A stretch of 64,000 nucleotides of DNA from the human T2T-CHM13v2.0 reference genome, Homo sapiens: assembly GCF_009914755.1 (NCBI RefSeq), contig NC_060930.1. The stretch is one strand, 5' to 3'. The translations under genes and the position numbers were made by a program. The notes beneath the pieces are model-generated. The model saw only the letters and a list, made by a program, of their open reading frames with translations. It did not search any database and was not told the origin of the DNA. Shown here piece by piece: positions 19,201 through 59,500 of this stretch; within the stretch, counting starts at the first letter, position 1, and the number at the start of each line of letters is the position of its first letter.

Positions 19201-20890
19201 TTTGTTACTGTTAATAGTGCTGCAATGAACATACACTTGCATGTGTCTTTATGGTGGAATGATTTATATTCCTTTAGGTAAATATCCAGTAATGGGATTG
19301 GTGAGTCAAATGGTAGTTCTGTTTTTAGCTCTCTGAGGAATCACCACACTGCTGTCCACAGTGATTGAACTAATTTACACTCCTAACAAGTGTATAAGTT
19401 CCTTTTCTCCATAACCTCACCAACATCTATTATTTTTTTACTTTTTTGTAGCCATCCTGACTGGCAGATGATATCTCATCATGGTTTTGATTTTGCATTT
19501 CTCTAATGATCAGTGATAATTGAGGTTTTCTTTAACACGCTAGTTGGCTGTATGTATGTCTTTTTTGAAAAGTGTCTGTTCATGTCCTTTGCCCATTTTT
19601 TAATGGAGTGGGTTTTTTTTTTCCTGTAACTGTGTTTAAATTCCTTATAGATGCTAGATATTAGCCCCTTGTCAGATGCATAGTTTGCAAAAATTTTCTG
19701 TCATTTGGTAGATTGTCTGCCCTGTTGTTTATTTTGCTATGAAAAAGCTCTTAAATCCAATTTGTCCATTTTTGCTTTTGTTACAATTGCTTTTGGTGTC
19801 TTCATCATGAAATATTTGCCAGTTCCTATGTCCAGAATGGTATTGCCTAAGTTATCTTCAGGATTTTTATAATTTTGGGTTTTAACTCTTTAAACCATCT
19901 TAATTTTTGTACATAGTAAAAGGGGTCCAGTTACGATCTTCTGCATATGGCCAGCCAGTTATCCCAGCACCATTTATTGAATAGGGAGACCTTTCCCCAT
20001 TGCTTGTTTTTGTCAACTTTGTTGAAGATCAGATGGCTGTAGGTTTGTGGCCTTATTTTTGGGCTCTCTATTCTGTCCCACTGGTCTGTGTGTCTGCTTT
20101 TGTACCAGTACCATGCTGTTTTGGTCATGGTAGCCCTGTAGTTTGAAGTTAGGTAATGTGATGCCTCCACCTTTGTTCTTTTTGTTTAGGATTGCCTTGA
20201 CTACTCAGGCTTTTTGGTTCCATATGAATTTTAAGTTTTTTCTAGTTCTGTGAAAAATGTAATTGATAGTTTGATAGGAATAGCATTGAATCTATAAATT
20301 GCTTTGGGTAGTATGGCCACTTTAATGATATTGATTCTTCCTAGCCATGAGCATGGAAAGTTTTTCCATTTGTTTGTGTCATCTCTGATTTCTTTGAGCA
20401 GCGTTTGTGATTCTCATTGTAGAGATCCTTTACTTCCTTGGTTAGCTGCATTCCTGGGTATTTTATTCTTTTTTGTGGCAATTATGAATGGGATTGTGCT
20501 CCTGATTTGGCTCTTGGCTTGGCGACTGTGTATAGGAATGTTAGTGATTTTTGTACACTGATTTTGTCTCCTGAAACTTTGCTGAAATTATCAGATGAAG
20601 GACCTTTTGGGCTGAGGCTATGGGGTTTTCTAGATATAGAATCATACTGTCTGCAAACAAGGATAGTTTGACTTCCTCTCTTCCTATTTGGATGCCCTTT
20701 ATTATTTCTGTTGCCTGACTGCTGTGATCAGGACTTTCAACACTATATTGAATAGGAGTGGTGAGAAAGGGCTTCCTTATCCTGTGCCACTTTTCAAGGG
20801 GAATGCCTGCAGCTTTTGCCCATTCAGTATGATGTTGGCTGTGGGTTTGTTATAGTTGGCTCTTATTATTCTGAGTTATGTTCCTTCAAC
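19201..20890 (-). mobile_element. L1PA/PB-type ORF2 3' fragment
   Basis: [20 protein letters not shown]...[16 protein letters not shown] peptide. Confidence 0.9.
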
Positions 20891-21093
20891 ACAAGATGGG
20901 AAGCTCCCCAAATCCACATCTCTTGCTTGTGGGGGAGCCATCCTCAGCACATCGGCCCTACCCAACCCACAGTAGATACCAACATCCCTATGATGGATGA
21001 GCTATGGTGGAGTCCCCCCAACCCCAGAGTGAGAATTGGCCCCCGATGGGGACTTAGGGAGGGCTGAGTTGGCGAGCTGTGGGAGGTCATCAT

Positions 21094-21333
21094 CAGTGGG
21101 GCTCAAGCTCTCCCCTCCAAGCTCCAAGGATCTCTGCAGCCACAGGACGCATTCCTTCTCCACTTAGATCTTGTCTGTGAAGTATCCAATTGCCTTCCAT
21201 TTCTACTTGGTGTAGAATGTAGGGGGCAATGAATGAAACTGCCGCATATTGCAGAGGGTCCATGTCCAAGCACAGGCAGTTGTAACGGTAGTAGCCACAC
21301 CACCAGTACCTGTGGTTCCTGCTAGCCCCTCCA
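21094..21333 (-). pseudogene. Highly diverged MHC class I alpha-2 (exon 3) fossil
   Basis: Minus-strand translation [69 protein letters not shown] aligns almost ungapped to HLA [39 protein letters not shown]...[24 protein letters not shown]. Confidence 0.8.
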
Positions 21334-22639
21334 CTGCCCAGGCCAGACAGTGTCAGTCTGGCAGATGTACCCCCAAGGACTCTCCCTCATGGTGTCTGCT
21401 CCTCTGCCCCACCCTTCTGATCTCACAGCTTCTCCTTAGGTGACATTCACACTTTAGACAAAGTTGTTTGGTCCCCTGATTATGATCTCCTTTACTTGCT
21501 GTCAGCTCTGCCTGGGAAGAGGTCTATGCTCAGTTCCAGGATACATGGAAAAGGCAGTGGATGGGCAGGTACAGTCTTGGGCTTTACCATGAACTGTGTT
21601 GTTTAGTCAAGTTGTTTAACCTCCACTCTGTTCATCTTGTATATATGGGTGGGGGGTGAAGACTATGAGCCCACAGGTCTGCTTCTGTGCTCACTGTAAC
21701 AGATTCCTAAGTGCAAGTCCCTGAAACAGGATCACAGTACACAACATTAACATAAGAGGGTACATTATGCACGGTACAGCTTTCCTTGAGGTTCTAGAGA
21801 ATGCAAACCTTAACATTAACAAGTACCAAACCTCTGCTGAAAAATCCTCTAATGAATTTCAAGGTTAAATATAAATAAACTGTGGGATTGTTCTGCCTAG
21901 AGTAGCCACACCCTCCTCGGGGGTCCCACAGTCCACAGGCTCAAACTCCTCATCCAACAGTTACATGCTCCACCAACTTTCAGACTGTCTCTCCCAGTAG
22001 GCAGTGAGCCCCTAGAAGGCAGGGACTATGTAACGGTGACCTGGCAACTTTGTTGAACAGCTGCTCCTATCAGGATCAGTTCGTAAAAAGCCAAGCACTG
22101 CTCAGCCTTTTATTATGCCTCTTACTGATTTATGCCTTCATTTGGCATTCAAGAACTTGCTCCAATAGTGCCAAACAGTTGGGAGATATTTACTACAAAT
22201 TATTAAAACTGCAGTCTATCCTCTGAACCAACTGTGCTCAATCCCACCACACATCTTGCTGCTCCCTAACTTCTAGCTGCTTGGAAAGTCTCATTTTCTT
22301 CATCTACTCAAATCATACACATCCCTCGGGTTCCATGCAAAGTTCCATCTCATTCATGAAACTCCCTGACCACTGGGATATCTGGCCCATGAACTTGAGC
22401 AAACTATTTCTTCTGCATCTCATTTGGCATTTGAGGAGGGACTGTTCTCTGACGTCTCCTGGTATGCCTCACAGAGTCAGTAAAGTGTTTCCAGACCTAT
22501 AGGTACCACCCCATATTGTTAGCTCTTTGAGGATACACACTAGGTTATACTTTTCTGGTTCTCCACCCTAAGCACCCAAAAGGCAGATGGTAGGTACATC
22601 TCAGCTCCAAAGAGACTGCTGAAGACTGAATGAATTAAT

Positions 22640-22785
22640 GACACACAGAGAAACTGACCCTGGTGACCAGCCTGGGCCAGTTCACTCACGTGACTGTGGG
22701 GGCTGGCAAGTACATAATTTTCAGGTTAGACTGGCAGGCTGGAGACCCAGGGAAGAGCTGACACTGCAGCCTGAGGCCACAGGTA
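22640..22785. mobile_element. MLT2-like LTR fragment
   Basis: gactggcaggctggagacccagggaagagctga motif typical of MLT2. Confidence 0.5.
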
Positions 22786-22787
22786 GC

Positions 22788-23940
22788 AGTGTTGCTGGGT
22801 TGCTGCATTCTTTACTGTGAGATTTAGAAAAACTGTCATTATCATTATCCTAATATTGTCAAAACTTGTAGGCAGCCTATTTGCTGTTTTTGGTTCTTAT
22901 TGTTAGTGTGTTGTTATTCCTGTGGAAATCATAATTGTGCAGCGTTTTGATATCTATGAATTCAAAAACTTAAACAGAATATTAAGAACAAACTAATAAT
23001 AAAGTGACAAACTTTGGATACCTTTTTAACATTGTTTCTAAATATTGTAAACATGAATCTTCTGGACCTCAGAGGGAACAAGGAAGCAATGATATTAATA
23101 ATGAATCATAATCTGGAACACCTGATATTGTACACAAACTATAACAACTGGAAATGCCTTTGCAACTGCATAAGAGTTAGTTCAAAGAAACAATAATTTG
23201 CATTTCTAAAATTTAAAAAATCCCCAATAACTTTTGACAAAACTCACAGATGGCTTATTATTGCTAGCAATGTAAATATTGGATGCAAATCATGCTCAAA
23301 AGCTGTGTGAATAGCCAAAAGTGCTAAGCACATTCTGTCAGTGCTCATAATTCAAGGAAAACATTAGCAAAATTCAAAGAAAAAAACTTGAAAAATATTA
23401 AGAACAGCTTTGTACAATAAAGTATTTGAAAAAAGCAACAAACAGTGGAAAAATGCCATCAGATGTTAGTATACAGTTTACCCAAATGTGTAATTAAATA
23501 GAGCATTTTACATCATTAAGTAGAGGCTTTTAAACAATTATACATAGTGCATATCATTGCAGTATAGATTAATGGTTCTGCTGGTTGCAAACCATATTCT
23601 ACATAAGACAACTTTTGGAAAATTTATTAATCCAAGCAATAAATCATTATCAGTGAAGTGTCAACCATTTCACAAAATGTATTTAAGTTTTAGTTCCTTA
23701 AATACTAAATGTAAGACTTACAGGAAAATGGGTTTTTGTTGATCTGAGGAACTTATACCAACCTTACTCATCAGTGCCCAAGAAAAATAGCTTTAATGTG
23801 AGACAGTTGTATGATGGTACAGATAGTGCCAGTATATGCAACGAAGAAAGTTCAGGTTTCACCAAAATTTTGCAAAATTTCGGGGTTTAAAAATCTGTTT
23901 ATCGCAGAAGTCACATTGACTGTCTCACATTTACTCTTCC
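22788..23940 (+). mobile_element. hAT DNA transposon relic (Arthur1/KIAA1586-like transposase)
   Basis: Broken peptides WLIIASNVNIGCKSCSKAV, VANHI...IISEVSTIS, TDSASIC..ESSGFTKILQNF resemble hAT transposase motifs. Confidence 0.6.
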
Positions 23941-24139
23941 TCGTGTCCTGATCCTGCTGACTTGTCCACATGGGCAACTACGAAGCTGGCACAACTATAC
24001 TTCTTTGTTCACTTTGGTCACCACCATTTGTTCTGCTGTTGGGCTGCCCATGTGTAGGCAGGTTTCACGAAAATATCAGGTTCCCTAAGCAACATGAACT
24101 GGGAGGCTCAGAGAGGGATTTCCCTAGTCACTGACTTAC

Positions 24140-24402
24140 TGAGGGATTGACTCAAGATTCCCAGGCACTAGACAGAAGCAGTCGGGAAAGGAATCATTTC
24201 CTGATTGCCTGTGGGGGAAAAAGAAACTTTTTTGGATAGAACAGTCTGGATGGACTCTAACACAGTAAAAAGTGAAGGCAGTGCATTCTTCAGAAGGGCG
24301 GCAGATGGGGCACCACGCATCCCCACAGAGGGGCTGTCCTGCGGTCCTTGCAGGAGTTGCCAGGCTCCCAAAATCTCCTCCTGCTGCTATCCCCACCCTG
24401 CC
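24140..24402 (-). ncRNA. HCG18: Candidate HCG18 exon (or start of terminal exon)
   Basis: Minus-strand acceptor cctcttttcag|GCAGG and donor CTCA|gtaagt; unique sequence with no credible coding homology. Confidence 0.45.
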
Positions 24403-25889
24403 TGAAAAGAGGTGAGGAGGATGATGGGGAGGGAGTCAAACAGACTTGGGATAGGAGGAGTGAGTGCGCTGGTAAAACCAATTACTTAGCTAAACCTTTG
24501 GCTAAAACTCTAGGAAGGGAGGCACAAAATGGGAAAGTGTGGGTTTTTTTTTTTTGCTTCTCTAGGTGAAGGTTTAAATTAACTTCAGCATGGGTAAAAC
24601 TATTCTTTCCTTCTTTTTTCTCTCCCAGAGTTCTCACCACCTCCTCCCAGGCTAAATCCTTCATGTTGCAGGAGACAGAGAATCCCAGGTGAGACCCGGA
24701 CTTTTTCTCCTCCCTCCCTTCCTTTTTTCACCGTGTTCAGGATAAATTATCTTGGTTTTGTTTCTGGAGGGAAAAGGGCAGAGAGGCCCTGACTTGAATC
24801 TCAATCACATTTCTGCACACAGTACCTGAGGAGACAGAATAGCAGAGGGGTGGGAACAATTAACATTGCTTTATGGGCTTTAGAATGGAGAAAAAATAAT
24901 TCCCACTCTTTTTTCTTTTACCCAAATCCAACTTCAGTTTTCTCTCCAACTCTCTAAAACCACCACCAATACTATTATCACATCATGTGTAGCTACTTGG
25001 GGGGTGGTGAAAGGCTGAGTACGCATCATGTTCAGGTAGTAGGGTGTTAAACGAAATAGTTCCTCACAGCAATGCCCAAAGTCATCCTTGGTCACAATAA
25101 AGGAGAATAAAGGGAAAAAAGTATGATTATTGTATTAGATTGTGGGGTTGCAGGTGAGTTTTTTTTTTCCATTTTAAAAATTATTTTGTGGTTATAATGA
25201 TGATGTCAATTTTTAAAAAAATAAAAGAATGGAAAAAGTTGACTTGGGATTTCATAATGCAAAGAAAAAAGCAAAACAAAAAAGAACAACAAAAAGCAAA
25301 CAAAACAGATTTACATGTAATACCTAATTTAATCCCTTCATAACTCTGTGAAGTGGGTCAGTATTGACGGGTCAGCTTAACTAACAGATATTAGGAATGA
25401 GATCCAAAACAACCAGCCATGGTCGCACAGTTTGTGGAACCCAGGTTCTTTGACACTCAGCCCAGTGTTCCACCTGCAATGGCAACCTAAGTGAGGAGGG
25501 GGCCTCAGAGATGAGGTGGTCGACCCTTACAATGTTGATATTCTCCATGCTTTCTCAGAGCAAGTGGCTGAATCTCTTTCGTGACAGAGAACTCACCACC
25601 TACCAAGGCAGCCCATTTTATTAAGTCTAACTTTTAAAAAAGATACTTATGATGAGCACAATTCTGTCTCTCTCATACTCTATGGAAACGACCAATTTCT
25701 GACCTCTATGTCACAAAGAGTAAGTTTAGTTCTTCACATAATAGCCCTCCAAATATTTGAAATCTCTAGTCATAGCCAGATATATTGCATCAAAATAAAT
25801 GGCTATTTTCTGCAGGAGGGTTGGTCCAAATGTCCTAGCCTACCATTACCTGAAGCAAGAAGTCCTCCCTATTTTTTGAAGAACTATAT

Positions 25890-26550
25890 TTATTTGCTCA
25901 AATCATATTTATTAGGGGCCTGCTATCTGCCAGGCAGTGGGGATGCAGCGATACACAGGTCAAATAGGCATTTGGAGTGTGGAAGTGGGTGCCCACCCTA
26001 GTCGGGGAGCATCTCAGGATGTCCTCCTCAAGGAGATGACATGTCAACTGAGCCCAGAGGACAACAGGAGTTGACAGGGAAGAGTATTTCCTAGAGCGAG
26101 AAACTGGAGGCAGCTGTAGTGAGGTGCTGATGGGTTCTGGCCACCACCTGGACCACCTAGATTTGATGTTTCTCCACCCCCACTTAGTTGTGTGACCCTG
26201 GACAAGTTCCTCACCCACTACGTGCTTTAGAACCCTCACTGTGAAATGGGAGATGTGATAGGAATGTTGTGAGGATTGTTTGAGTGAATACATGCAAAGG
26301 ACTTAGGACAAGCCTGGCACATAGTTAATGCTCAATCAATGTTTTCTCTCGCAACTGGAGGGAAACAAGGTAGTGGGCAGGAAGGGGGAGTGCGCAGACA
26401 GTTCCTGCTAAGCCTTGTAAGTTACCATGGCCCAGCACTGTAACCAGAGAAGTGAGGATGAGACTTCCACTTTGAGAAAGGCCTCTCTGGCCGCAGCATG
26501 TAAAGGAATGGGAGGGGATTAGAATGTGTGTGCACGGACTAGGTGGGAGC
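25890..26550. mobile_element. L2 and MIR fragments
   Basis: MIR core (tgtgaccctggacaag...tgtgaaatggg...cctggcacatag) at ~26170-26345, flanked by L2 3'-end-like text. Confidence 0.55.
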
Positions 26551-26661
26551 TAACTGCAGGGCCAGCATCTGTGGCACAGATTATCTCTCTTCATCCTGAA
26601 CCCCTCCCTCTTCCCGTCTCGAATCCTTTTCCCACTCCTGACCACATCCTCCACCTGTCAG

Positions 26662-27117
26662 AAAGTCACAGTTAAGGAAGAGATTTCCGAGCACACCTTG
26701 GACAGAAGTCATGATGATGGGGCCCATGACTGGCAACCTGCTGGGAGAGGTGGCCTGCAGTGTGTCTGGAGTACATGGGGGACCCCGGGAGCATCTTCTG
26801 TGTCTGTGGCCCCTGGCAGGCCTGCATCACTTGGTGCTATGCCACTATCAGATCCACCACAGGAGCCATGTGCTATTCATTCCACAAGGAGCCCTTTCAA
26901 CAGGGAGACATCAGGCCCAACTGGATTCTAGCCACCTTGGTCTCCAGTCTCCTACTCTCAAGCCCATGAGTGACAATTCAGCACAGGAAATTTGGTTCTG
27001 TGAGCAGCATCTATTGGCAGGATGACCAGCAATTCTTGTGTGTGGTTTGCAAAGATCTTAACGGAGAACAAATGTTACTTAGTGCTGCAGAAGGAGAACA
27101 ATGCTAGGTTCCACAAG
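26662..27117 (+). pseudogene. TRIM-family pseudogene, RING + B-box exon
   Basis: Frameshift-corrected NLLGEVACS/VCLEYMGDPGSIFCVCGPWQACITWC...KEPFQQGDIRPNWILATLV...FCEQH/IYWQDDQQFLCVVCKD/...ARFHK|gt. Colinear with the TRIM39 exon in this window, with the same phase-0 donor. Confidence 0.85.
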
Positions 27118-27468
27118 GTAGTCTGTCCTTTTGCTGTCTTGTCTACACCAGAGAACCTTTGGTTGACTTGCTTTAATATTGGCTTCAGTCCTATTACAAA
27201 ACAACAACAAATTATTGTATTCTAAACACAGTTCTAAATGCAACAATAGTTTATCTTTTAATCCTGGATTATACAGTTTACAATTACTTGCAAATGCATA
27301 GTACCTCACTCCAAAAAACCTCAGGCATCCAGGCATCACAATTTCTCTATCTGCATGACACAGAAACTTCCATGTCACTAGAGGATTTCACAATCCATAT
27401 ATGAATCCCCTGAAGACTTCTTGGTGTGAAGGAAACATCACTGGACACAACACTGAAAATGGCAATAG

Positions 27469-27796
<328 letters not shown>

Positions 27797-29274
27797 TTAG
27801 GTGAGCTATAACATCTGGGCAAATAAAAACACTATGTTATTCCTAGAAAAATTATAGAAATCTAACTTAACCTTGTCAACATGGGGATTCATTATCTTAT
27901 TTAGCAAACTAAAGGAACAATAATGTAACTGCACCTCAGGTACAACTGGAACCAGGGATTTGAATGCAACTAAGACTTCCCATCTTTTATTTTCTCTTCT
28001 CTAGATTAGCTCAATTTTTTGCAACACATTTCCTGTATGAACTATAACTATAGCCATTTCTAGATTAATACCTCTTGTCAGCAAAGCAAGACAGAGGTAT
28101 TCTCTGGTCATGAAGAAAATTCCAGAAAAGAGCTCTGAATCAAAGGCCAAAATCCTGGCATATCTGGTGCTGTGCAGAGCTGAGAGACTGGCTGAAGAGT
28201 GTGCCAGCAGTAAGCTATCCTAGGCATAGGGCCTGACTAGAAATCAAAGACCCTAATGTAGCAGTATTGCATCATCTATAGCCTAGATTATGCTGCAATG
28301 ATATACAACTCCCGTATCTCACTGGTATAAACCAAAAAGATTTCTTTTACATGCTACCTGTTCATCAGGAGTTGCTGAGGGGGTCACTTGGAGATCCAGG
28401 CTCGCCAAGCAGCCACTGTCTTCAGCACCAGCTAATGCCCTGCTAGTGGGCAAAGAGGGAGCTCTGGAAGAACATAAACCAGCAGTTAAATTCCCAGTCC
28501 AGAAGAAATACATATCACCCCTACTAACACCTCATTACAGGGCACAGATGATGACAATAATGACCTCTCAGGCTTAAGGACCCTTCAACTCTGAGAGAGG
28601 GTATCTAGTGGTCACCTAGCTACTATCCTGTCTTTCCCTCAGGCAGAAGTGGGTGTGGTTTCCAACACCCCCAGCTGTGTCCCGGTCCGTGACAACAAAA
28701 TCTTTGTAATCTAAAGTTTGAAGCATTTCAGAGGTCAGAAGGGTGTTTGCTGTTACGACTCTTGCTCTCACTTCTACCTGACAAGAGAGAAGAATTTGTA
28801 TAGACTGTTAGACATGTTACTATTTTTTGAAAGCACTAGGTATTTGGGACAAGGTCAACATGTTTCCCTATCAGAAATCACTCATAGATATGTTCTTTGA
28901 GGTCAGGAATTCTATGAAATAAAAATAAAGAAAATTATTGAGCCTCTCTTGGATGCCAGCACCATGCTCAGTGCTTTCATTTTTTTCAGTATACTCACAT
29001 TACTGATTATCCTTCATTTTACTTATGATCAAAGCAAGAGTTGAAGGAATGTCCTTGGTTCAAGGCTACACCTTAGGAGACACAGTCAGAATTTAAATCC
29101 AGCTTTCTTTCATTTGAAAGACTGTGCTCTGTGCTGGACCACACTGTACAGTTTTTAAAGTGATCTAACAACGACAGCATCCATCAGTGAACTCTGAGTC
29201 TACCAAACAGAAATTGCTCTTAATGGGTTCATCTAATGGCAGGGCCGGCTCAAGGCAAAATTTTTTGCCCCCAT

Positions 29275-29568
29275 CCCTCTTTTTCATTCGACACGATTTT
29301 GCTGTATCATCCAGGCTGGACTGCAGTGGCGTGGTCACAGCTCACTGCAGCCTCAAACTCCTGGCTCAAATGATCCTCCCTCCTTATCTTCCTGAGTAGC
29401 TGGGACTATGGGCGCATGCCACCATACCTGCTAATGTTTAAAATTTTTGTAAAGATGGGGTCTCACTATGTTCCCTAAGATGGTCTCAAATTCCTGGCCT
29501 CAAGCAATCCTCCTGCCGCAAATCTCCTGAAGTGCTGGGATTATAGGTAGAAGCCACAATGCCCAGTC
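29275..29568 (-). mobile_element. AluJ
   Basis: Diverged antisense Alu. Confidence 0.85.
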
Positions 29569-29589
29569 CCCTTCTCCCTGATTAAAAAT

Positions 29590-33900
<4,311 letters not shown>

Positions 33901-36600
33901 TGTACATCTCAGGGTGGCTTAAAGCACTAGGAGAAAGCATGCAAAACAGCCCAAGGTGAAGCTCACTTGGCAGCTGAGAGTGAGTTCACACCATGTACTC
34001 TAAAATGAGGAGGTGCTCTTTTCTTCTCACTCTAATTAAAGAAGACTGAGAAGCCCTTCAGCACTTCACTGTGCCCCCTGCTGCCCTGCACCTCCCGGCT
34101 ACTTTGTGGTAGATTCCTGGCACTTGAACTCTCTACAGGCCCAGGAGAGAACAGCTTTCTTGAGGTCCTAAGGATACCTGAGAATCATTCTCAGAGTTAA
34201 TGGAATCTTCTATATTTTCTGTGGATTTTGATTATCTACTTTTTTTCTAACTTCTGTGAGATTAGAGAATTGAAAGCCTGTCATATCACTGGAACTCAGT
34301 TAAAATGTGGTGTCTTCTCCAATATTGTCCAACTAGAAGATGTGGGAATCCCAACTGATATAAGAACTAAGAAATATGACTACAAACTAAAGGGAAAATA
34401 AGAGAAGAACTTAAAGAATATTTGGGAGTTTTAGGGAGGTCATAACTGTAATGAGCTAATGTCATCCATATGTCCAAGGGAAAGTGAATCTGAATTTACA
34501 GGGCAACTTCCGTGGGCCAGGTTCCTTCACACATAATTTCAAGTCATGCTAAAATGAATGCATCCAAGGAAAATTTTATCATACATAACTTATGATAAGG
34601 AAACTTATGCTTAGGAAGATTAATTAGGAGGTTAAGGTCACCAAGCCTCTAGACTGTTTCGCCAGGACCCAACCCAGGTCTGGCTTCTGTTTGGTTTTGG
34701 AGTATGTGTTATCCCCACTCCATCATGCTGCCTCTCCAACCTGCAGCCCAGTGCCCAGGGCACAGGGGTCAGGCCAAGATCAGAAGGGACACTAACACCA
34801 ACAGGCCTGGCGAGGTGGGAAGTACAGGGAAGGGGTGACTCCAGCTTACTCTTCTCTCCCTCCCAGAGGGACCATCAGGGCCATTGGCACTGTTGGGTGA
34901 TAGAAGTTGTAAATACGGGGTAAGGTACATGGATGACACCATCTCCATATGTGTATGTGATAGAGTGGCAGGCCAGAAGTTAATAGCCACATCCAGGGAG
35001 CCAAGGATATAGTTCCCAGTAACGGCGCTTGCGTTCTGCTCTCAGGGCTGATGAAAGAGGATGGAAGTTGTACTCTGTTCCTCTACTTCAATAGAAAGTA
35101 AGCTAAAAGGAGAAACTGGGAGACAGAGGTTTACAAAAGGAAATTTATAATGGGGTCATATCAAGATAATTCAAGAGGGAAAATAAGACAAGGTGGCTCC
35201 TTCCCTGAATTGGTGACACAACACTAATCACTGTCCCCACAGAGTGGCTGGGCCTGACCCCAACTACAGGAGCTCAGCTGTCTCTACCCTCTGAGGGTAG
35301 ACAGGAAGCAGTGGTCATGCTACTGCAGCCTAATGACTTGAGATTAGAATTGGCCATTGCCCCACTGCAGGGTGTGTGCCCAGCACACTTTGACAGCTTC
35401 CCTCTCTGTTCAGTCTTGAGAAAAAAATAACACTAAATAAGGAAGGTGAAGCTACAGAAAGTCCTGACTATCAAAAAATGTTAACATTCAGGGCGAGGAA
35501 AGACTTTAGAAATCATTCCAAATTTCATGAGGGTAAATCAATTGTAAGGGCCATTAAGGTTGGCAAGTGGCAGAATATGGATGCAAACCTAGGGCCCTTC
35601 ACTCCTCCTCCAGTGCACTTTCCACCATGCCAGGAGGAAGGGCGAAGAGTAAAGGTGCCAGGGGAAGGGCTGAGGCTTGTCTCCTTCCACTTCTTTACCT
35701 CACAGAAAATGAAGGATACAAATGGAGCCGAAAATTTAGGCCTCTGGAAGCTACAGGTCTGTTTCAGATGGATCTATTCTTTTTCCTGGGTTCAGTGAAG
35801 TTATTTGGCCATAAAGCCCTAAGCCATGTATGATCATAACATTTTAAGAAATAGAAGCCAGGTATTAGAAGGTTCCGTTTTCTCTATAAATAGTTCAAAG
35901 TATCTCAATGAAGTTTAGGTATCCAAAAAAAAAAATACCCCAACTTTAGGAGCATTAAGTATTATGAGTAATAAAATAAATACTTATAGCAATGGGGGTT
36001 TCAGGACAATTTACCTCTTGAACATAAGTAGATATGCTCAAGAAAGCTATCCCAAGGACAGGGTTGCATGCACGAAGAGACGAGACCAAGTTAAGTTCCA
36101 CAGTCAAAACAGACATCCCTATTTCCTTCCTAGTAGCATCTGTACAGCATAAATAGGTATTTGTGAATGAAGTCATGAAAAGATCCTCAAAGGTCTGTGT
36201 TAGAGCAACTGTGGTTAAAATACGAGAGTAGGAAAAGTGAGATTCTCCAGTTAAGTTACTAATAATTCAGACTTAAGACTTTTTAGAAAGATGATCATCT
36301 TTTATTTCTTTCAGGAGCCATGGCTATCAACCTGGAGAGAGGCCAAAAGACACCTAGGCTTTTTGTAAACCAAAGATTGAGGTATCCACATCAGTCAGCA
36401 GTGGCTTCTGCAGCAGCAGCCACAGAAAGTGAGTAATGGAAACAAAAGGATAGAGATATACAGGAAGTCCTCTTTCCTCACCTGGAGAAGAAAGAAGACA
36501 GCAAAAAAAATTAGGTCAACCCCACAATCAAGGTAGAGCTGCTCTAAAATCTGAGGTAGCCAATGACCAACACAAACCACCTCACCTTTCTGAGACTCGG

Positions 36601-36804
36601 CTCTCCTGTAAAGGAGAAACCACACTGACCCTGGATCAAAATCCCCAGACAGTAGACGTGACCTTGGATTTCAAGAAGGAGCAAATTACCTCTGCTAATG
36701 CAGATAAAGACGCCACCATTTTTGGTTTTCAGGATTTCACAGGGAAAATAGTCCCATTATTTGGCCTCTATTAGCCAGAGGCCCAGATGACCCTGTGTCC
36801 CTGA
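36601..36804 (+). pseudogene. TRIM-family pseudogene, B30.2/SPRY C-terminal fragment
   Basis: TTLTLDQNPQTVDVTLDFKKEQITSANADKDATIFGFQDFTGKIVPLFGLY*PEAQMTLCP* resembles the TRIM10/15/26 SPRY end (P-x-x-V-x-V-x-L-D-Y...F-T-N-A...I-Y-T-F...F-T-x-K-V-x-P-F-F-x-L-W). Confidence 0.75.
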
Positions 36805-36857
36805 GATAGGACATGGCTTTCCCATGGCCTCTTATGAGAACCTGCCCAGCAATAAGT

Positions 36858-37171
<314 letters not shown>

Positions 37172-37435
37172 TAAGTTTTTAATTACCAGAGTCAGTGGTT
37201 CCTGTCATTGATTGAGCTTACTGACTGGACAATGAGAGGGTCATATGTGGCTGTCTCCAGCCATTACATTAAGGTGACACTTGAGCATGACACGAGGTCT
37301 GCATTCTCTACAATCAACTGGATCTGTCCCACTGCTTCCCACCAGGAGCAGAAGCATGCTTGTGCCAGTTCCTAAACATCATCATTTCATTTTCAGCCCA
37401 CAGCCCTCCCCTGCTCAGATTTCCCACCATCTAAG

Positions 37436-37765
37436 GCAGCAATCCTCAAATGCTAGTGTGCACAAGGATCTAAGGCACTTGCCGAAAATGTAGATTCCTG
37501 CACCAACCCCAGAGAACCAGAAGCAATCCCTCTAGGGTAGAGCTTGAGAATTTGCTTTGAAAAAAGATCTTACATGTTTTTGGATAACACTTAAAGATGG
37601 TCCTAGAACAGTGCTTCTGGAAATTTTAATACGTAAGCAAATTAAGAGCAGCTTGTTAAAATGCAGACGTTTAAAAACTTGGTGCAGGCCTGAAATTCTG
37701 CACTCATATGTTCTCCCAGAGAAGCTAAAGCTGCTGGTCCTTTTGGCCACACTTTGAGTCACCAG
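37436..37765. mobile_element. MER5-type (hAT-Charlie) MITE fragments
   Basis: cttgttaaaatgcaga...cctgaaattctgca...ccacactttgag motifs. Confidence 0.5.
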
Positions 37766-40700
37766 AACCCAAAGGATTTCCGGCCTGTATCTGGGCCCAA
37801 GAGAGCAAAAGTGTCACAAACACACACAGTTTTAACCTTCCCTGATTCTCTGTGGAGTAGAATCTTCTCCCTTACTTCCAGTCAGACAGGTCCCCATGGA
37901 TAAGGGGGTACTGCTCTGCCTTGTGTGCCCTCAGTTTCCCTTTATGGAACTCTGTTCTGATCTCAAGCTTCCACTAGACCTGCTATTAGAAGTGCTGAAC
38001 ACTGATTTTCTGTGAGTATAAAGTAGTTAAAAGAAAAAAGAAATATATGTAAGGCTGTAGAGTTTCCATCTGTAGATATCAAGAAATGAGTATGAACTGT
38101 TAGGCATTCCCCAAGATTGTTGTTCAAAGATCCTCCCAAGTTTGAGACCTCAAATTCTTTCAGGTGATATTCATATCATTTACTCTTTTTTTTTTTAAAC
38201 TTAGAAAGTGAGTTGCAGCAAATTTTCTCCTGAAAGAATTGCAAAGATGAACCGTGGCCTCTTTCTATATTCATAATTTTTGTCTTAGGGTTAAAAAGAC
38301 TCCCCCAAGGACAGAAAATTGTACCTAATGATACAGCCTAGAGCGCATGTTGTTCCTTTTGTCTACAGTACCTTCTACCTCTGGCTCAAATGCACTCTGG
38401 TCACTGATGCACCTCCAGTTCTCACAGCTTAGTAAATTATGGTGTAGTGATCACGTCTATGTCCCTACTTCCCCAACCAAATTTTCTGAGCTATGCCAGG
38501 GTGAGGATGTGGCCCTTTTCATCTTGTAATTCCCAAAAGTCTGTGGTGGAGTGCAGAGATGACCACTAAATGAAAGAATCACTCGTACTGGTTGAAACAA
38601 TACCAATAAATACCTTAGGTTCTGTGGTGAACACAGATCAGTAAATAAATGTTGGGCAATCTTCCAGTCTCTCAGTGTCCCACGGTATATCTGTTCCCCC
38701 ATAGGGAGCACAGCTAGAGCTCCTTTACCTACGCTGCGGGGACACTGATTTGCATGGGGAGGCCTGGTGCAAGGCCTCTGCTGGGTATGAGCAGCAGTAC
38801 AAGCCTTTGAAGGCTGTGTGCTGTTCAGAACTTGGAGCTGGTTGGGGGCCTCCGATGCCCTGTGCTGACAAGCTGGCCTGGGGCTTCTCCCCACTAGAGT
38901 CTTCTCTATATCTCAAGGTATGCACATCTCTTCCTGGGCACACAGGCAATGGGCTAGACAAGCATCTCTCTCCTCTAAGGCTTGTCACCAAGCATTCCTT
39001 CCTTCCAGGGGGTGGGGTTTGGAAATTCCCACTTAATATAGCCCACCTTCTGTCATTTGACATTTTCTAACACTGGAGTGGTGGTTCCCAATCTCTTCAC
39101 CATCAAGGAGGCTTAATTTCTTCCCTCTCTATTTTAATACGGTTTTAACTACCAAACAGGATCCTCTAAGTGATCATTTGTTTTCTTATACTGTTCATCA
39201 GAGAGATGTTTAAGATCAACATGAAGATGACAAAGTTACATCATTTGCTATTCAATATTGGAAAATACATCTCACCCCATATTGAGATCCTAGTCTGGGC
39301 TAGCTGAGTTACGGGGGCTGCTAAAACTCTAGTAATAGCAACAGCTGTCTGCCTTCCATTCTCCTGCTATGGCACACACTTCTTTCCTTCAGAATCACAC
39401 CCCCGAGATATATGATTCATAACCTTATGGCTAGAAAAAAGAGGACATGATCATTCTACAGGTCCCTTGCTCCCTTGAATTACCTCTCCTGGGCCCATTA
39501 AGAACAGGCACATGAAGAAAGAAACCCAGGGTTGTGCCACAATCGCACAAAAATCTGTCCACAGATAACACCTCAAGGAGGTAGGGCCTGCCCACCTGAA
39601 TCACTGTTGTCTACATAATGCAACTTAACCATCCTGTTCTGCGTTTAGCTATTCAAGACTTTTGTAACCAGTCCCTGTGGTATGGGTTGTTTTCCCAATT
39701 GTACCCTGACTGAATCACTGGGTATCATGTCAGAGGAGGGGGACCTATTTAACCTCTTTTCCCTGGTGTCCTGGAGCCCAGGGGCTCCTACGTGGCAATG
39801 GGTGCCAGATACCCTTCCTCAGCTAGGATATAGGGGTCCAGATTTCCATAATATCTATAGATTGATTTACTTAAAACTTATTTGTTGTCAAAATACAAAT
39901 ACCCTGGGCTTAGGAAGAAATTAATACTTATCAAGACTATGTCAAATAAAAACAACTACCACTAACTGAAACCACTTAGTTATCAGATATATTATACATA
40001 TCACTCCATGTAATCCTCCCAACAAAATGATGTCATCTAAGAGATGAGAAACTGGGACCCAGACCAGTGAAGCCCCATGGCATAAGTCACACAGGCAAGA
40101 AATGGTAAAGCAAAAATTCACACCTACGTCTTCCTGGGCTTTGCCATAACGCACACTGGCTTCTTCACTGTGGCTATTGCCTGACAGAATGAGACTCAAG
40201 TAATTACAAGGATTCATCAGAAGGGAAAAGCTGACATGACCAGAACTAGAACACAGCCCAGGGAATGCAAGTCTGGGTAGATCATGGTACTCGAAGCCCA
40301 AGGATCATTTGAAAGAGGTTTAAAAAAATAAAAAAAGGAGTAAAATGCACAAGTGAAATGGAGGTGAAACTTAACTATAGCTTAATTTTTACTTCAAAGA
40401 CTGCTCAGCTCATTTTGGGAATGTGAGGGGAATTAAGAAGATTCTGGATAGGTTTGTAGGAGAGGCAAGGTGTGTAGGGTATATGTGGGGACAAAGGGAG
40501 CAATTGTATCCTAGACTGTATCCAATAATTTTCTGGGACAAAAGAGAGCAAATGTAGACGTGGGGAAGTAGTAGCTTGAGTGGTATCAGGTGCCAGAAAG
40601 AAGACCAAGGGAAAAACCTCTGATGACCATGGGGATAGTGTAAATTGAGTAGCAAGAGGAAGGAGGACTGCAGAAGTTCAAGAATGATGAGAACTGAGGA

Positions 40701-57190: not shown

Positions 57191-58558
57191 CTTCATTTAG
57201 TACTGTCTAATGATGTTTTCATACTGCAAGGAGAAAGCTGAGTATGGACCACAAGGCCAAAAAGATGTCCTCTCTGGCTCTCTACAGCAAAGATTTGCCA
57301 AGCCCTGTTATATGTCATACTACTTGCGCTTCATAATTTTATAGTTTTACCTAGACAGTCTCCCTTTTTTCCTTCCATATTCAGCATAAAATCCCCTTAA
57401 TATCAGTCTCTAGGCAAGCACATTCTTCACAGTCCTTAGAACTGGACCTCCTCTTGTTAATTTCCTTAGTCTAATCACATTCCTCCTGGTTATCTACAAA
57501 CAGAAAGCCAGAAAGGAGGGCTATCAACATCTTAAGCGCCACAAATTAACAAATCAAAACCAAATCTCTCTCTCCCTCCGAAGCCACGGCTAAGGAGGCT
57601 CACTGCCCAGTTAGTGGCTTTCAAACTACCCTTACAAGTGAGACATCTTGTGAATTAGAACAAGTGCTGCTGCTAAAATCCCTAACGGCTACATAGCAAT
57701 GTGAAAAAAGGTATCAAATGTAATTTTCTCAAATTTAATCTTCTTCAATTCTTGGCACAAAAAAAGGAACAGTAAAGGTAGACAACTGTAATTAGCATGT
57801 GTGATCCCAAATCTTTATACCTTAGATACTGGATTATATTTTCAGCAAGTAAATAGTTTCTGGCTCCCAAGATGAGAGGTTAAATAATGCAGGGTGTTTG
57901 TAAACAGCAGCACAATTTACACCGGAAATTAGGGCCCTTTCTCACCGAGGAGAGTACAGCAAAATCTGCTCATCTCTTTCAATGAATACTCTCCATGACT
58001 AGTGCTGGCGGCTGGGAGGCGGAGCAAGCTATCTTTTCTACCAGCCGTGTCACACCCCTCCTAGCACTAACCCCTCCTCCTCAGCCTTTTCACACCTCTA
58101 CCCACTACTAGCCCCTCCCCAGCCCCATCACCTCTTCCCGGGCCCCTCACACCTCTCCCAGCATACTCTTCCCCAGCCTCATCACCTCACCCACTTCCTC
58201 CAAAATCACTGACCTGCTAAGCTTCCAGCAGCAGGCGGGCAAAGCAGGGAGGCTGTAATGCAAAAGTCCGCAGTCCCTACACAAACACTATCTGCTCCTG
58301 CGGAGAAACTCAAGTCACAGCCCCAGAAGTGGAAAGAACAGGCCTTGGCTCTCACCCAGTTAACAAGCGTTTATCCAGCGCACGTGTTGCGGTCGGACCC
58401 CATGCGAAGGAGCTAAGGACACAAAGGTGAGCAGCAGAGACGCGGTTCCAGCTCTCCCCCGGCTCCCACTCCAGCGGGATAGGTAGATAATTTCGGTAAA
58501 TTTCGCCAAGCAGGGGCAGGACAAAGAGTATTTGAAGTCTACCGCGGGGAGAACTTAC

Positions 58559-59030
58559 CTAATCCTTGAATGTTAAAAGGCTAAAAACTCCACTAGTCGG
58601 AAGTGACGTGCCAGCTTAGCCCCGCAGGTCCGCCACGTAATTGGCCGCCGCCACAGCTAGCCACCCTCTCCCCAGACTGGCCCGAAGAGAGGAAAAGTGT
58701 GGAAGTCCACAAGCCGCCCCCGCCCCGCCCTCTTCGTCGACTTTCAGCTGCACCGGGAGGCGGCGGCGCCTGGCCAGAGCCGGGGCCTGGAGCCTGGACT
58801 AGACAGCCTCGCCGGCCGGGGCGCCAGTCCAGCGCCCTGCGGGCAATGGGCTTCAGCGCTCGAGCACGCGCATGCGCGGGCCTGTATCTCCAGAGGATTC
58901 CTCGGGTCACCTGGACGCCAGCATCTCAGCCACCTGCCCCTCTGGGTCCCTTCTTGCCCTTGATTCCCCCTGCTGCTTCTCATCGCCAGCCCTCCTCCTC
59001 CTTCTTCCGCAGGCACCGCTAGACCCGGCC
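58559..59030 (-). ncRNA. HCG18: lncRNA HCG18 first exon (5' end approximate)
   Basis: Minus-strand donor TTAG|gtaagt at 58559/58558 at the edge of the CpG island; known head-to-head arrangement with TRIM39. Confidence 0.65.
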
Positions 59031-59500
59031 GCGGCCGCCCGCCGACACCCCAGCTTCCACTGACACGAGCCTCGGCGCGGCTTCCGCTTCCGGCGAGTAT
59101 TGTGTGTCGCGCCGCGGGGCGGGGGCGAGGGGAGGAGGAAGGAGGGAGGCAGCGCTCCGGCGGCTCCGCGCCCCGCACTCCCGGACCCGAAGCCGGGAAG
59201 GTAGGTGCTGTCCCGCCGCCGCGCCCGAGCCTGGGGCCTGCGCTCGCCGGCCGGCTCCGCAAGCCGCGTCCCAGCGCCCCGCGACTGCGTCACCGGCCCC
59301 CCGCACGTAACCACAGCTGCCTCCGCCCGCCTCGGGCCCGGGCGGACGTTTTGCCGCCCCGGCGACGTCAGCGCGTCCGGCGTTGCTTGGCTACCCCGCC
59401 GTTCCCCCGTCCCGCTGCTGCTCACCTCCCCGGGTGAAACTCTGACGCAGTCACCGCGGGTCTCGGCAGCGTCATAGCGGCGGGCATCCCATCTGCACGT
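58590..59500. promoter_or_regulatory. CpG-island bidirectional promoter (TRIM39 on +, HCG18 on -)
   Basis: Very CpG/GC rich. ETS-CRE CGGAAGTGACGT 58598-58609, GC boxes ~58715-58730, NRF1 GCGCATGCGC 58868-58877, tandem ETS CTTCCGCTTCCGG 59081-59093, CRE-like GACGTCA 59364-59370. Splice donors point outward on both strands. Confidence 0.9.
59080..59200 (+). other. TRIM39: TRIM39 first non-coding exon (5' end approximate)
   Basis: Inside the CpG island; strong donor GGGAAG|gtaggt after 59200. Confidence 0.6.

What the first reader, a model, noticed from the sequence alone, without database searches (positions are those of the whole stretch)
26662..27117. Unprocessed TRIM pseudogene: RING + B-box exon antisense to HCG18
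Seen: polypyrimidine tract and ctgtcag acceptor, ATG at 26711. NLLGEVACS/VCLEYMGDPGSIFCVCGPWQACITW aligns without gaps to TRIM39 [35 protein letters not shown] after a 2-nt slip in a GT repeat. It continues KEPF..GDIRPNWILATLV (TRIM10/26-like), then B-box remnants FCEQH and DDQQFLCVVC, and a phase-0 donor CACAAG|gt like TRIM39's TACAAG|gt. Several zinc ligands are lost. Inference: an extinct extra member of the MHC TRIM10/15/26/39 cluster. I know of no annotation at this spot.
Basis: partly seen in the sequence, partly recalled or inferred. Interest (0 to 1): 0.8.

Follow-up and report, generated by a model that had tools for sequence, protein, structure and literature searches.

The report
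Decayed TRIM gene relic in MHC
This is the broken remains of an old extra TRIM (RING/B-box/SPRY) gene lying between TRIM26 and TRIM39 in the human MHC, a dead gene missing from RefSeq that adds a lost member to a known immune gene cluster but is otherwise ordinary.

Summary
Window 26662-27117 (+) is a decayed first coding exon of a RING/B-box2 TRIM gene. tblastn against the window gives TRIM26 E=1.5e-4 and TRIM10 E=3.2e-4. A whole-genome search with TRIM10 exon 1 finds the spot at E=4.4e-4. A frameshift-aware alignment scores 114 against TRIM10, versus about 29 for shuffles. The closest relatives are TRIM10 and TRIM26; TRIM39 ranks 14th of 28.

New here: about 9.5 kb downstream on the same strand lies the tail of a SPRY domain (36619-36801). 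It matches TRIM10 at E=4.8e-7 and TRIM15 at E=3.2e-6, and these are the only non-self matches in the genome. Its stop codon is co-linear with theirs. A probable last-exon acceptor and a weak PRY motif sit at 36316-36397. No coiled-coil exons were detected.

So this is an unprocessed pseudogene of about 10 kb. It carries at least two frameshifts and two premature stops, and has lost 9-11 of 18 near-invariant residues. Its first coding exon lies antisense inside the terminal exon of HCG18.

Pfam RING/B-box profiles do not detect it. RefSeq has no annotation, and six literature searches found no description. No present function is indicated. Interest is modest.

The parts
26582..26661 (+). Pyrimidine-rich tract ending in cag: putative acceptor of the first coding exon (inferred, not testable here)
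   Evidence: 79% pyrimidine over 26582-26658 against 50% for the window. It lies 49 nt before the ATG; TRIM26's acceptor lies about 50 nt before its ATG. There is no alignable similarity in the UTR part.
26662..27117 (+). Remnant of the first coding exon (RING + B-box2) of a class-IV TRIM gene; ATG at 26711; 407 nt from ATG to donor
   Evidence: tblastn TRIM26 1.5e-4, TRIM10 3.2e-4; genome-wide E=4.4e-4; DP score 114 against shuffle mean 29; alignments.
26756..26766 (+). Frameshift: 2 nt missing in a GT run between the first two RING cysteine codons
   Evidence: Frame change between 26758 and 26760. The TRIM39 sequence at the same place is in frame.
26967..26969 (+). TGA in the frame that carries the RING. 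This is a premature stop, unless the ancestral frame shifted near 26952 and back near 27011 (the reading that contains FCEQH).
   Evidence: stop reading; two-frameshift reading.
27051..27063 (+). Frameshift (+1) inside the B-box, between LCVVC and the end of the exon
   Evidence: Placed at 27063 (TRIM26, TRIM27), 27057 (TRIM68) or 27051 (TRIM39) by the frameshift-aware alignments.
27118..27119 (+). GT donor, phase 0, at the position where TRIM first coding exons end
   Evidence: CACAAG|gtagtc. TRIM39 has TACAAG|gtgggg and TRIM26 has CACAGG|gtaagc. Protein similarity stops here, with no exon 2 fused on.
36316..36618 (+). Probable 5' two-thirds of the last exon (PRY and first half of SPRY), heavily decayed. 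The acceptor tttctttcag| is at 36315/36316 and a weak PRY-like motif starts at 36326.
   Evidence: The acceptor and motif are co-linear with TRIM10 and TRIM15 last-exon starts. The PRY weight-matrix score ranks 25th of 127,858 window positions. This part is NOT above controls in alignment (33 against 28-38), and Pfam finds nothing.
36619..36804 (+). C-terminal SPRY (B30.2) remnant, with a premature TAG at 36772 and a TGA at 36802 co-linear with the TRIM10/TRIM15 stop codons
   Evidence: tblastn TRIM10 aa 420-471 E=4.8e-7 (40% identity), TRIM15 aa 404-463 E=3.2e-6. Genome-wide, the only non-self matches are the TRIM10 (E=0.011) and TRIM15 (E=0.034) last exons. DP alignments, DNA. Pfam SPRY reaches only E=0.23.

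Best explanation
A non-functional, unprocessed pseudogene. It is the relic of an additional class-IV TRIM gene (RING, B-box2, coiled coil, PRY/SPRY) that once lay on the + strand between TRIM26 and TRIM39 in the MHC class I region (chr6:30158662-30168804 in T2T-CHM13).

Origin (inferred): an old tandem duplication within the TRIM10/15/26 group of the cluster. After inactivation it decayed neutrally. Only the first coding exon and the last exon are still recognisable, about 10 kb apart, with their splice-site positions and stop-codon position preserved.

It makes no TRIM protein. The frame is broken at least twice in exon 1 and there are premature stops in both exons. Half or more of the near-invariant zinc-binding and structural residues are replaced.

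Today the exon-1 remnant is simply part of the 7.5-kb terminal exon of the lncRNA HCG18, read on the opposite strand.

Shown: homology, lesions, exon boundaries, strand and order. Inferred: that the two remnants come from one gene, the age, and the origin by duplication.
For: Exon 1 homology:
- TRIM26 E=1.5e-4, TRIM10 E=3.2e-4, TRIM27 E=0.014.
- genome-wide E=4.4e-4.
- of 10 non-self genome matches to the 69-aa piece, 6 are first coding exons of TRIM26, TRIM10, TRIM22, TRIM6, TRIM68 and TRIM5, as named.
- DP 114/102/97 against shuffle means near 30.
- sensitive blastn, 61% identity over 199 nt to the TRIM26 exon (E=5e-7) and over 185 nt to the TRIM10 exon (E=4e-6).

Last exon. The stop codon lies 10 codons after the GLY/GLW/AVW motif, as in TRIM10 and TRIM15.

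Unprocessed structure:
- Donor at the family's exon-1 end, phase 0.
- No exon-2 similarity follows it.
- The two remnants are 9,198 nt apart, of which 2,623 nt are masked repeats. TRIM10 and TRIM15 have 5.9 and 7.8 kb between the same exons.
- Both remnants are on the + strand, in the right order, and both are nearest to TRIM10.
- They are the only TRIM-like signals in window 1-58500.

Death of the gene:
- Frameshifts and stops.
- Only 7 or 9 of 18 columns that are at least 95% conserved in 26 working human TRIMs are kept.

A distinct old paralogue:
- The DNA search of the genome finds only itself.
- Nucleotide identity to TRIM10/TRIM26 is 65-66% over about 180 nt, within the 61-70% range seen among the longer alignments between working paralogues.
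Against: - Pfam finds no RING or B-box in the open pieces, and SPRY reaches only E=0.23, 12 bits against a cut-off of 26.3.
- The 45-aa B-box piece alone finds nothing else in the genome.
- The best non-self genome hit of the 69-aa RING piece is an unannotated chr8 stretch with three stops (E=0.015), ahead of TRIM26 (E=0.026).
- No coiled-coil or small middle exons were found between 27118 and 36618; scores equal the controls.
- The PRY and first half of SPRY are not statistically detectable. The PRY motif is only 25th of 127,858 positions in the window.
- Tree placement is unsupported. The end branch is 3.31. The grouping with TRIM68 and the TRIM26/31/10/15 set has support 48/44. The AU test does not reject a clade with TRIM39/75/60 (p=0.22).
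- That both remnants belong to one gene is inferred from strand, order, spacing and a shared nearest relative. It is not shown.
Confidence: 0.88

Rival explanations
1. Two unrelated relics: the RING/B-box exon and the SPRY tail come from two different dead genes (for example two partial TRIM duplicates) that happen to lie in the right order on one strand.
For: No middle exons link them. The 5' part of the last exon is not significant. The region is a known class I duplication block, the kappa block between TRIM26 and ABCF1 (passages of PMC4753418).
Against: They share strand and order. After removing masked repeats the spacing is 6.6 kb, between the values for TRIM10 and TRIM15. Both are nearest to TRIM10. 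There are no other TRIM-like signals in 58 kb on either strand.
Confidence: 0.08
2. Chance resemblance: a cysteine-rich open frame in unique DNA that mimics a RING finger.
For: Pfam RING and B-box profiles do not detect it. Individual E-values in the genome-wide search with the fragment are weak, 0.026 at best for a TRIM.
Against: - The reverse search from TRIM10 gives a genome-wide E=4.4e-4.
- The DP score is 114 against a maximum of 39 among 20 shuffles for TRIM10.
- The match is co-linear over about 120 residues with RING, linker motif, B-box and exon end in the family's order, ending at a GT donor.
- An independent SPRY remnant lies downstream.
Confidence: 0.01
3. A recent copy or fragment of an existing gene or pseudogene (TRIM39, TRIM26 or TRIM26BP) rather than a separate old family member.
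For: TRIM26 is the best tblastn hit. TRIM26BP lies in the same interval.
Against: - The genome DNA search finds only the locus itself.
- Nucleotide identity to any paralogue is 62-66% over the longer alignments, no closer than working paralogues are to each other.
- TRIM26BP is 50-60% identical to TRIM26 protein, whereas this exon is 26-33% identical.
- blastn between this exon and TRIM26BP gives 63% over 95 nt.
- TRIM39 ranks 14th of 28.
Confidence: 0.02
4. The relic has a present role as RNA: as part of HCG18's terminal exon it could pair with TRIM mRNAs (natural antisense) or contribute functional lncRNA sequence.
For: The exon lies inside HCG18 exon 19623-27190 on the opposite strand (given annotation). 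About 6.9 kb here (roughly 20592-27463) is free of masked repeats of 100 nt or more.
Against: Only 61-66% nucleotide identity to TRIM10/26 over under 200 nt is too little for specific duplexes (inference). No Rfam family matches in the window. Nothing here tests expression or conservation.
Confidence: 0.03

Closest known systems
TRIM10 (chr6:30016218-30025485, - strand)
   Same: It is the best match to both remnants. Exon 1: DP 114, 38/91 identical, including KEPF..RPNW and LCVVC. SPRY tail: 21/51 identical, E=4.8e-7. Both have 15 residues before the first RING cysteine, the same exon-1 end phase, the same stop position and a similar gene span.
   Different: TRIM10 is intact. The relic has frameshifts and stops and has lost 9-11 of 18 near-invariant residues. 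Nucleotide identity is only 65% over 176 nt. It lies on the opposite strand, 133 kb away.
TRIM26 (chr6:30048685-30077640, - strand)
   Same: Best tblastn hit for exon 1 (E=1.5e-4). With permissive frameshifts it aligns from the N-terminus to the last codon of the exon (46/112). Its acceptor lies about 50 nt before the ATG, against 49 nt here.
   Different: The SPRY tail is less similar (17/53). TRIM26's acidic insert in the last exon has no counterpart here. TRIM26 is intact.
TRIM15 (chr6:30027684-30036952, + strand)
   Same: Second-best match for the SPRY tail (22/59, E=3.2e-6), and one of only two non-self genome hits. The last-exon start and stop positions are co-linear.
   Different: Exon 1 matches poorly (DP 60, 21st of 28). 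TRIM15's own RING is divergent.
TRIM26BP (RefSeq pseudogene, chr6:30102529-30106505, + strand)
   Same: Another unprocessed TRIM pseudogene on the + strand in the same TRIM26-TRIM39 interval, also with a frame change inside exon 1.
   Different: TRIM26BP is clearly TRIM26-derived (50-60% protein identity, E down to 4e-18) and keeps a coiled-coil exon. The relic here is far more diverged, keeps a SPRY tail instead and is not annotated.
TRIM39 (window 58674 onward, + strand)
   Same: Neighbour on the same strand, with the same exon-1 donor phase and hexamer. The local match around the first RING loop is 12/25.
   Different: Overall it ranks 14th of 28. It has a longer N-terminus (28 residues before the first cysteine). 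TRIM39 groups with TRIM75/TRIM60 (96/90) and the relic does not, although the AU test cannot exclude it.

Membership tests
Class-IV TRIM gene family (RING, B-box2, coiled coil, PRY/SPRY), as a pseudogene | Significant similarity of the first coding exon to TRIM RING + B-box2 exons | tested here: met
   E=1.5e-4, 3.2e-4; genome-wide 4.4e-4; score 114 against about 29 for shuffles
Class-IV TRIM gene family (RING, B-box2, coiled coil, PRY/SPRY), as a pseudogene | Pfam RING (zf-C3HC4 types) and zf-B_box profile matches | tested here: not met
   0 families for the 69-aa piece and only unrelated weak hits for the 45-aa piece; no RING or B-box hit for two further overlapping open frames. The TRIM39 exon control scores 7.7e-16 and 1e-10. 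This is expected for a broken domain cut into pieces, but it is a failed test.
Class-IV TRIM gene family (RING, B-box2, coiled coil, PRY/SPRY), as a pseudogene | Zinc-ligand pattern of RING (C3HC4) and B-box2 | tested here: not met
   of 18 columns at least 95% conserved in 26 working TRIMs, 7 or 9 are kept. Losses include the RING His and at least two RING Cys, one B-box Cys (now Trp) and both C-terminal B-box His.
Class-IV TRIM gene family (RING, B-box2, coiled coil, PRY/SPRY), as a pseudogene | Coiled-coil exons (96 and 231 nt) after the first coding exon | tested here: not met
   best scores for exons 2, 3 and 5 of six TRIMs over 27118-36618 equal the reverse-complement and shuffle controls. 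tblastn finds nothing with E below 7 on the + strand there.
Class-IV TRIM gene family (RING, B-box2, coiled coil, PRY/SPRY), as a pseudogene | C-terminal PRY/SPRY (B30.2) domain in one last exon | tested here: inconclusive
   The C-terminal third is met by pairwise tests. Pfam SPRY reaches only E=0.23. The PRY and first half are not above controls, and the PRY motif ranks 25/127,858.
Class-IV TRIM gene family (RING, B-box2, coiled coil, PRY/SPRY), as a pseudogene | Family exon structure: phase-0 donor ending the RING/B-box exon, last-exon acceptor just before the PRY motif, co-linear stop | tested here: met
Unprocessed (duplicated) pseudogene | Disabling lesions in the reading frame | tested here: met
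   Frameshift at the GT run 26756-26766. TGA at 26967, or two further shifts. Shift at 27051-27063. TAG at 36772.
Unprocessed (duplicated) pseudogene | Introns retained; no fused exons or poly(A) tract as in a retrocopy | tested here: met
   Similarity ends at the GT donor and resumes 9.2 kb downstream. A poly(A) tract was not specifically sought.
Unprocessed (duplicated) pseudogene | Absence of a spliced + strand transcript or protein | not testable with these tools
   TRIM39 is 14th of 28, with tblastn E=0.27 over 25 aa. The AU test does not formally exclude a TRIM39/75/60 clade (p=0.22).

The most novel reading that the evidence does not exclude
The relic marks a lost framework gene of the ancestral mammalian MHC class I region: a third TRIM10/15-like gene between TRIM26 and TRIM39. 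It would have died roughly 100 million years ago or more in the line leading to humans, may still be intact (or independently lost) in some non-primate lineage, and would be missing from current human gene and pseudogene catalogues.
Probability: 0.3. Interest if true: 0.45.

Novelty: new member of a known kind. Interest (0 to 1): 0.28.

Why it matters
It adds one extinct member to the MHC-linked TRIM cluster (TRIM10/15/26/31/39/40, RNF39, TRIM26BP). It also gives a fixed landmark inside the TRIM26-TRIM39 interval, which sits in the class I 'kappa' duplication block. That can help reconstruct how the block and the TRIM cluster grew and shrank.

Practically, the relic should be annotated. Then TRIM-like open frames or antisense HCG18 reads at this spot will not be mistaken for a new coding gene. 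Nothing suggests a current function or a link to disease.

Tried and rejected
- **Pfam scans of the open pieces.** No RING, B-box or PRY, and SPRY only at E=0.23. The profile route fails on this broken sequence, so I relied on pairwise and frameshift-aware tests.
- **Genome DNA search with the exon.** Only the locus itself was found.
- **Genome search with the 45-aa B-box piece.** Only the locus itself was found.
- **Search for middle exons and for the 5' part of the last exon.** Nothing rose above controls.
- **A tblastn hit of TRIM10 aa 351-412 at 20441-20632 on the + strand (E=0.18; DP 49).** Rejected. It lies mostly in masked repeats (20408-20591), only TRIM10 matches it, and its translation looks to me like the end of a LINE-1 ORF2. 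That last point is recalled, not tested.
- **A TRIM10 last-exon score of 57 on the - strand in tile 27001-29000, probably the tblastn hit at 27634-27524 (E=5.9).** Rejected. That stretch lies in a masked repeat (27464-27677) and the hit is isolated.
- **A head-to-head partner gene, as in the TRIM10/TRIM15 pair.** The tile scan showed none.
- **Phylogeny.** The placement is unsupported, so I do not use it to name a parent gene. RNF39 and TRIM40 were dropped from the 28 first-exon rows before the tree and before the conservation count because their first exons are atypical.
- **Age.** From 7-9 of 18 near-invariant codons kept, and textbook neutral rates that I recall rather than measured, I obtain roughly 100 million years or more. 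This is an order-of-magnitude inference only.
- **Literature.** 'TRIM26BP' and 'TRIM26B' returned 3 papers each, none about this locus in the search listings. 'TRIM pseudogene' plus 'MHC' returned 0 papers. Three wider term sets gave nothing on it. I saw passages only of the cat MHC map (PMC2453318), the bat MHC-I map (PMC4753418) and Sardiello et al. 2008 (PMC2533329). The gene tables shown for cat and bat list no TRIM between TRIM26 and TRIM39. Meyer et al. 2003 (Tissue Antigens), the key paper on this cluster, is not held. Supplementary files and TRIMbase, which list TRIM pseudogenes, were closed or out of reach and may bear on novelty. GENCODE/HAVANA could not be consulted.
- **Not run.** I did not run the protein word search. 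Its length window (0.55-1.75 times a piece of at most 106 aa) excludes full-length TRIMs. I did not run the Atlas search, structure prediction or fold search, which are not informative for a broken gene. No vertebrate genome other than the reference was available, so orthologues could not be sought.
Full report
**What is there**

The window is chr6:30132001-30196000 of T2T-CHM13. RefSeq places only the lncRNAs HCG17 and HCG18 (- strand) over the finding. TRIM39 starts 32 kb downstream, and TRIM26BP and HLA-L lie upstream of the window (given annotation).

- A tract that is 79% pyrimidine ends in cag at 26661; the window average is 50%.
- An ATG at 26711 opens a frame that runs to the first RING cysteine.
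- Two nucleotides are missing in a GT run at 26756-26766, which moves the reading to the frame starting at 26760. That frame carries the rest of the RING, the KEPF..RPNW linker motif and LCVVC of the B-box.
- FCEQH is present in the ATG frame.
- The stretch ends CACAAG|gt at 27117/27118. TRIM39's exon ends TACAAG|gt and TRIM26's ends CACAGG|gt.

**Is it more than chance?**

I spliced the RefSeq coding exons of nine chr6 RING/TRIM genes from the reference and ran tblastn against the window.
- The exon matches TRIM26 aa 17-126 at E=1.5e-4, TRIM10 aa 18-123 at E=3.2e-4, TRIM27 at E=0.014, TRIM38 at E=0.19 and TRIM39 at only E=0.27 over 25 residues.
- Searching the whole genome in six frames with TRIM10's first coding exon gives 102 matches at E no greater than 0.001. 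One of them is this locus: chr6:30158760-30159059, E=4.4e-4, 29% identity, one TGA inside.
- In the other direction, the 69-aa open piece has 10 non-self genome matches at E no greater than 10. Six are first coding exons of TRIM26 (E=0.026), TRIM10 (0.215), TRIM22, TRIM6, TRIM68 and TRIM5. The single best non-self hit is an unannotated chr8 stretch with three stops (E=0.015).
- A protein-to-DNA aligner that I wrote to allow frameshifts scores 114 with TRIM10, 102 with TRIM26 and 97 with TRIM27. Twenty shuffles per protein have means of about 28-32 and a maximum of 47; the reverse complement scores 27-45. TRIM39 is 14th of the 28 human TRIM first exons tried.

Against this, Pfam finds no RING or B-box in the open pieces, although the TRIM39 exon run as a control scores 7.7e-16 and 1e-10. 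The 45-aa B-box piece finds nothing else in the genome. I attribute this to the domain being cut into pieces and having lost ligands, because the pairwise evidence is strong and co-linear.

**A second remnant**

The same tblastn run found a stretch on the + strand at 36619-36795. It matches the end of the SPRY domain of TRIM10 (aa 420-471, 40% identity, E=4.8e-7) and TRIM15 (aa 404-463, E=3.2e-6).

Genome-wide, the only non-self matches to this piece are the last exons of TRIM10 (E=0.011) and TRIM15 (E=0.034) (exon coordinates). The frame has a TAG at 36772. It then continues to a TGA at 36802, ten codons after the GLY motif. That is exactly where TRIM10 and TRIM15 stop after their GLW and AVW motifs.

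Upstream, at 36315/36316, there is tttctttcag| followed after three codons by a weak PRY-like motif. TRIM10 and TRIM15 start their last exons one or two codons before the same motif. This part is not significant on its own:
- Alignment scores equal controls.
- Pfam finds nothing.
- A weight matrix built from seven PRY segments ranks the site 25th of 127,858 positions in the window.

If one allows about 120 candidate positions around the expected place, that rank corresponds to roughly p=0.02. This figure is a post-hoc estimate of mine. I therefore call 36316-36618 probable and 36619-36804 shown.

**What is missing**

No coiled-coil or small middle exon could be found between 27118 and 36618. 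A tile scan of window 1-58500 on both strands, using the first and last exons of four TRIMs, gave 624 scores (median 34, 95th percentile 44). All eight top scores belong to the two remnants, so there is no partner gene and no further TRIM relic.

**Anatomy and lesions**

From ATG to donor the first coding exon is 407 nt, which is not a multiple of three. The nine working chr6 genes have 345-453 nt, all multiples of three.

Lesions in exon 1:
- The 2-nt loss between the first two RING cysteine codons.
- Either a TGA at 26967 in the RING frame, or two further shifts (near 26952 and 27011) that bring FCEQH into frame with a deletion of about six codons after it. The two readings use the same nucleotides and I could not choose between them.
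- A +1 shift at 27051-27063 before the exon's last 18 codons, which align to the exon ends of TRIM26 and TRIM39.

Among 18 alignment columns that hold one residue in at least 95% of 26 working human TRIMs, the relic keeps 7 (stop reading) or 9 (FCEQH reading). Losses include the RING histidine, RING cysteines, a B-box cysteine that is now tryptophan, and both distal B-box histidines.

The N-terminus has 15 residues before the first cysteine, as in TRIM10, TRIM26, TRIM27, TRIM31 and TRIM38. TRIM39 has 28.

**Unprocessed or processed?**

The relic is unprocessed:
- Similarity ends at a GT donor at the family's exon boundary, and no exon 2 follows it.
- Similarity resumes 9,198 nt later, of which 2,623 nt are masked repeats.
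- TRIM10 and TRIM15 have 5.9 and 7.8 kb between the same two exons.

**Which TRIM?**

Both remnants are nearest to TRIM10. TRIM26 is second for exon 1 and TRIM15 second for the SPRY tail.

At the DNA level the exon is 65-66% identical to TRIM10/TRIM26 over about 180 nt. This is no closer than working paralogues are to one another in the longer alignments (61-70%). The genome DNA search finds only the locus itself. So it is a separate old paralogue, not a recent copy.

It is 50-60% identical to TRIM26 protein, keeps a coiled-coil exon, and is only 63% identical over 95 nt to this exon.

A maximum-likelihood tree of 27 first exons gives the relic an end branch of 3.31. It places it beside TRIM68 and the TRIM26/31/10/15 group with weak support (48/44). 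A clade with TRIM10/15/26/31 alone is present in the best tree but unsupported (34/0). An AU test does not reject a clade with TRIM39/75/60 (p=0.22). The tree neither proves nor contradicts the TRIM10/15/26 affinity; that affinity rests on the pairwise results.

**How it most likely came about (inferred)**

A tandem duplicate of a TRIM10/15/26-type gene lay on the + strand between TRIM26 and TRIM39. It lost function and drifted. With half or fewer of the near-invariant codons surviving, and neutral rates that I recall rather than measured, the death would be of the order of 100 million years ago or more. This is a rough inference only.

It fits the gene tables shown for the cat and bat MHC maps, which list no TRIM between TRIM26 and TRIM39 (passages of PMC2453318 and PMC4753418). 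Those maps would not list a relic in any case.

Today the exon-1 remnant is simply part of HCG18's terminal exon (19623-27190, - strand), read antisense. I see no evidence of a function. No Rfam family matches in the window, and identity to living TRIM mRNAs is too low for antisense pairing (inference).

**Novelty**

RefSeq has no feature here. Six literature searches found no description. The key cluster paper (Meyer et al. 2003) is not held, supplements and TRIMbase were out of reach, and GENCODE could not be checked.

I rate it a new member of a known kind: an unannotated unprocessed pseudogene of a well-known family in a region rich in pseudogenes. It is of modest interest for reconstructing the history of the MHC TRIM cluster and for cleaner annotation.

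Noticed in passing
G000 chr8:103287756-103287923 (- strand), outside the window: This is the best non-self genome hit of the 69-aa RING piece (E=0.015, 27% identity, three stops inside). No gene is annotated there. It may be another decayed RING relic or chance.
   Followed up: no
window 20441-20632 (+): A weak TRIM10 SPRY-like hit (E=0.18) lies mostly in masked repeats (20408-20591). Its translation looks like the end of a LINE-1 ORF2 (recalled, not tested). I treated it as spurious.
   Followed up: partly
window 20592-27463: About 6.9 kb without any masked repeat of 100 nt or more lies under the terminal exon of HCG18. This is unusual for this repeat-rich interval. The TRIM exon relic occupies only its last 0.5 kb, and the rest is unexplained.
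   Followed up: no
L006 (chr6:30102000-30107000), TRIM26BP: TRIM26BP's first-exon remnant changes frame between L006 544-699 and 656-946. A coiled-coil exon remnant lies at L006 4240-4482 (TRIM26 aa 181-255, 53% identity). No SPRY remnant lies within the 5 kb fetched.
   Followed up: partly
window 58356-59361 (HCG18 exon, -) and 58674-59200 (TRIM39 exon 1, +): The first exons of HCG18 and TRIM39 overlap on opposite strands in the given annotation. The two genes therefore start from one shared, overlapping promoter region.
   Followed up: no
window 36852-37173: A masked repeat begins 48 nt after the relic's ancestral stop codon. It follows a T-rich run and looks Alu-like in translation (recalled). 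Any original 3' UTR is interrupted there.
   Followed up: no
window 1-64000: No Rfam family reaches its gathering score anywhere in the window. Only two short AT-rich tandem repeats occur in 20000-40000, at 23492-23540 and 25261-25305.
   Followed up: yes
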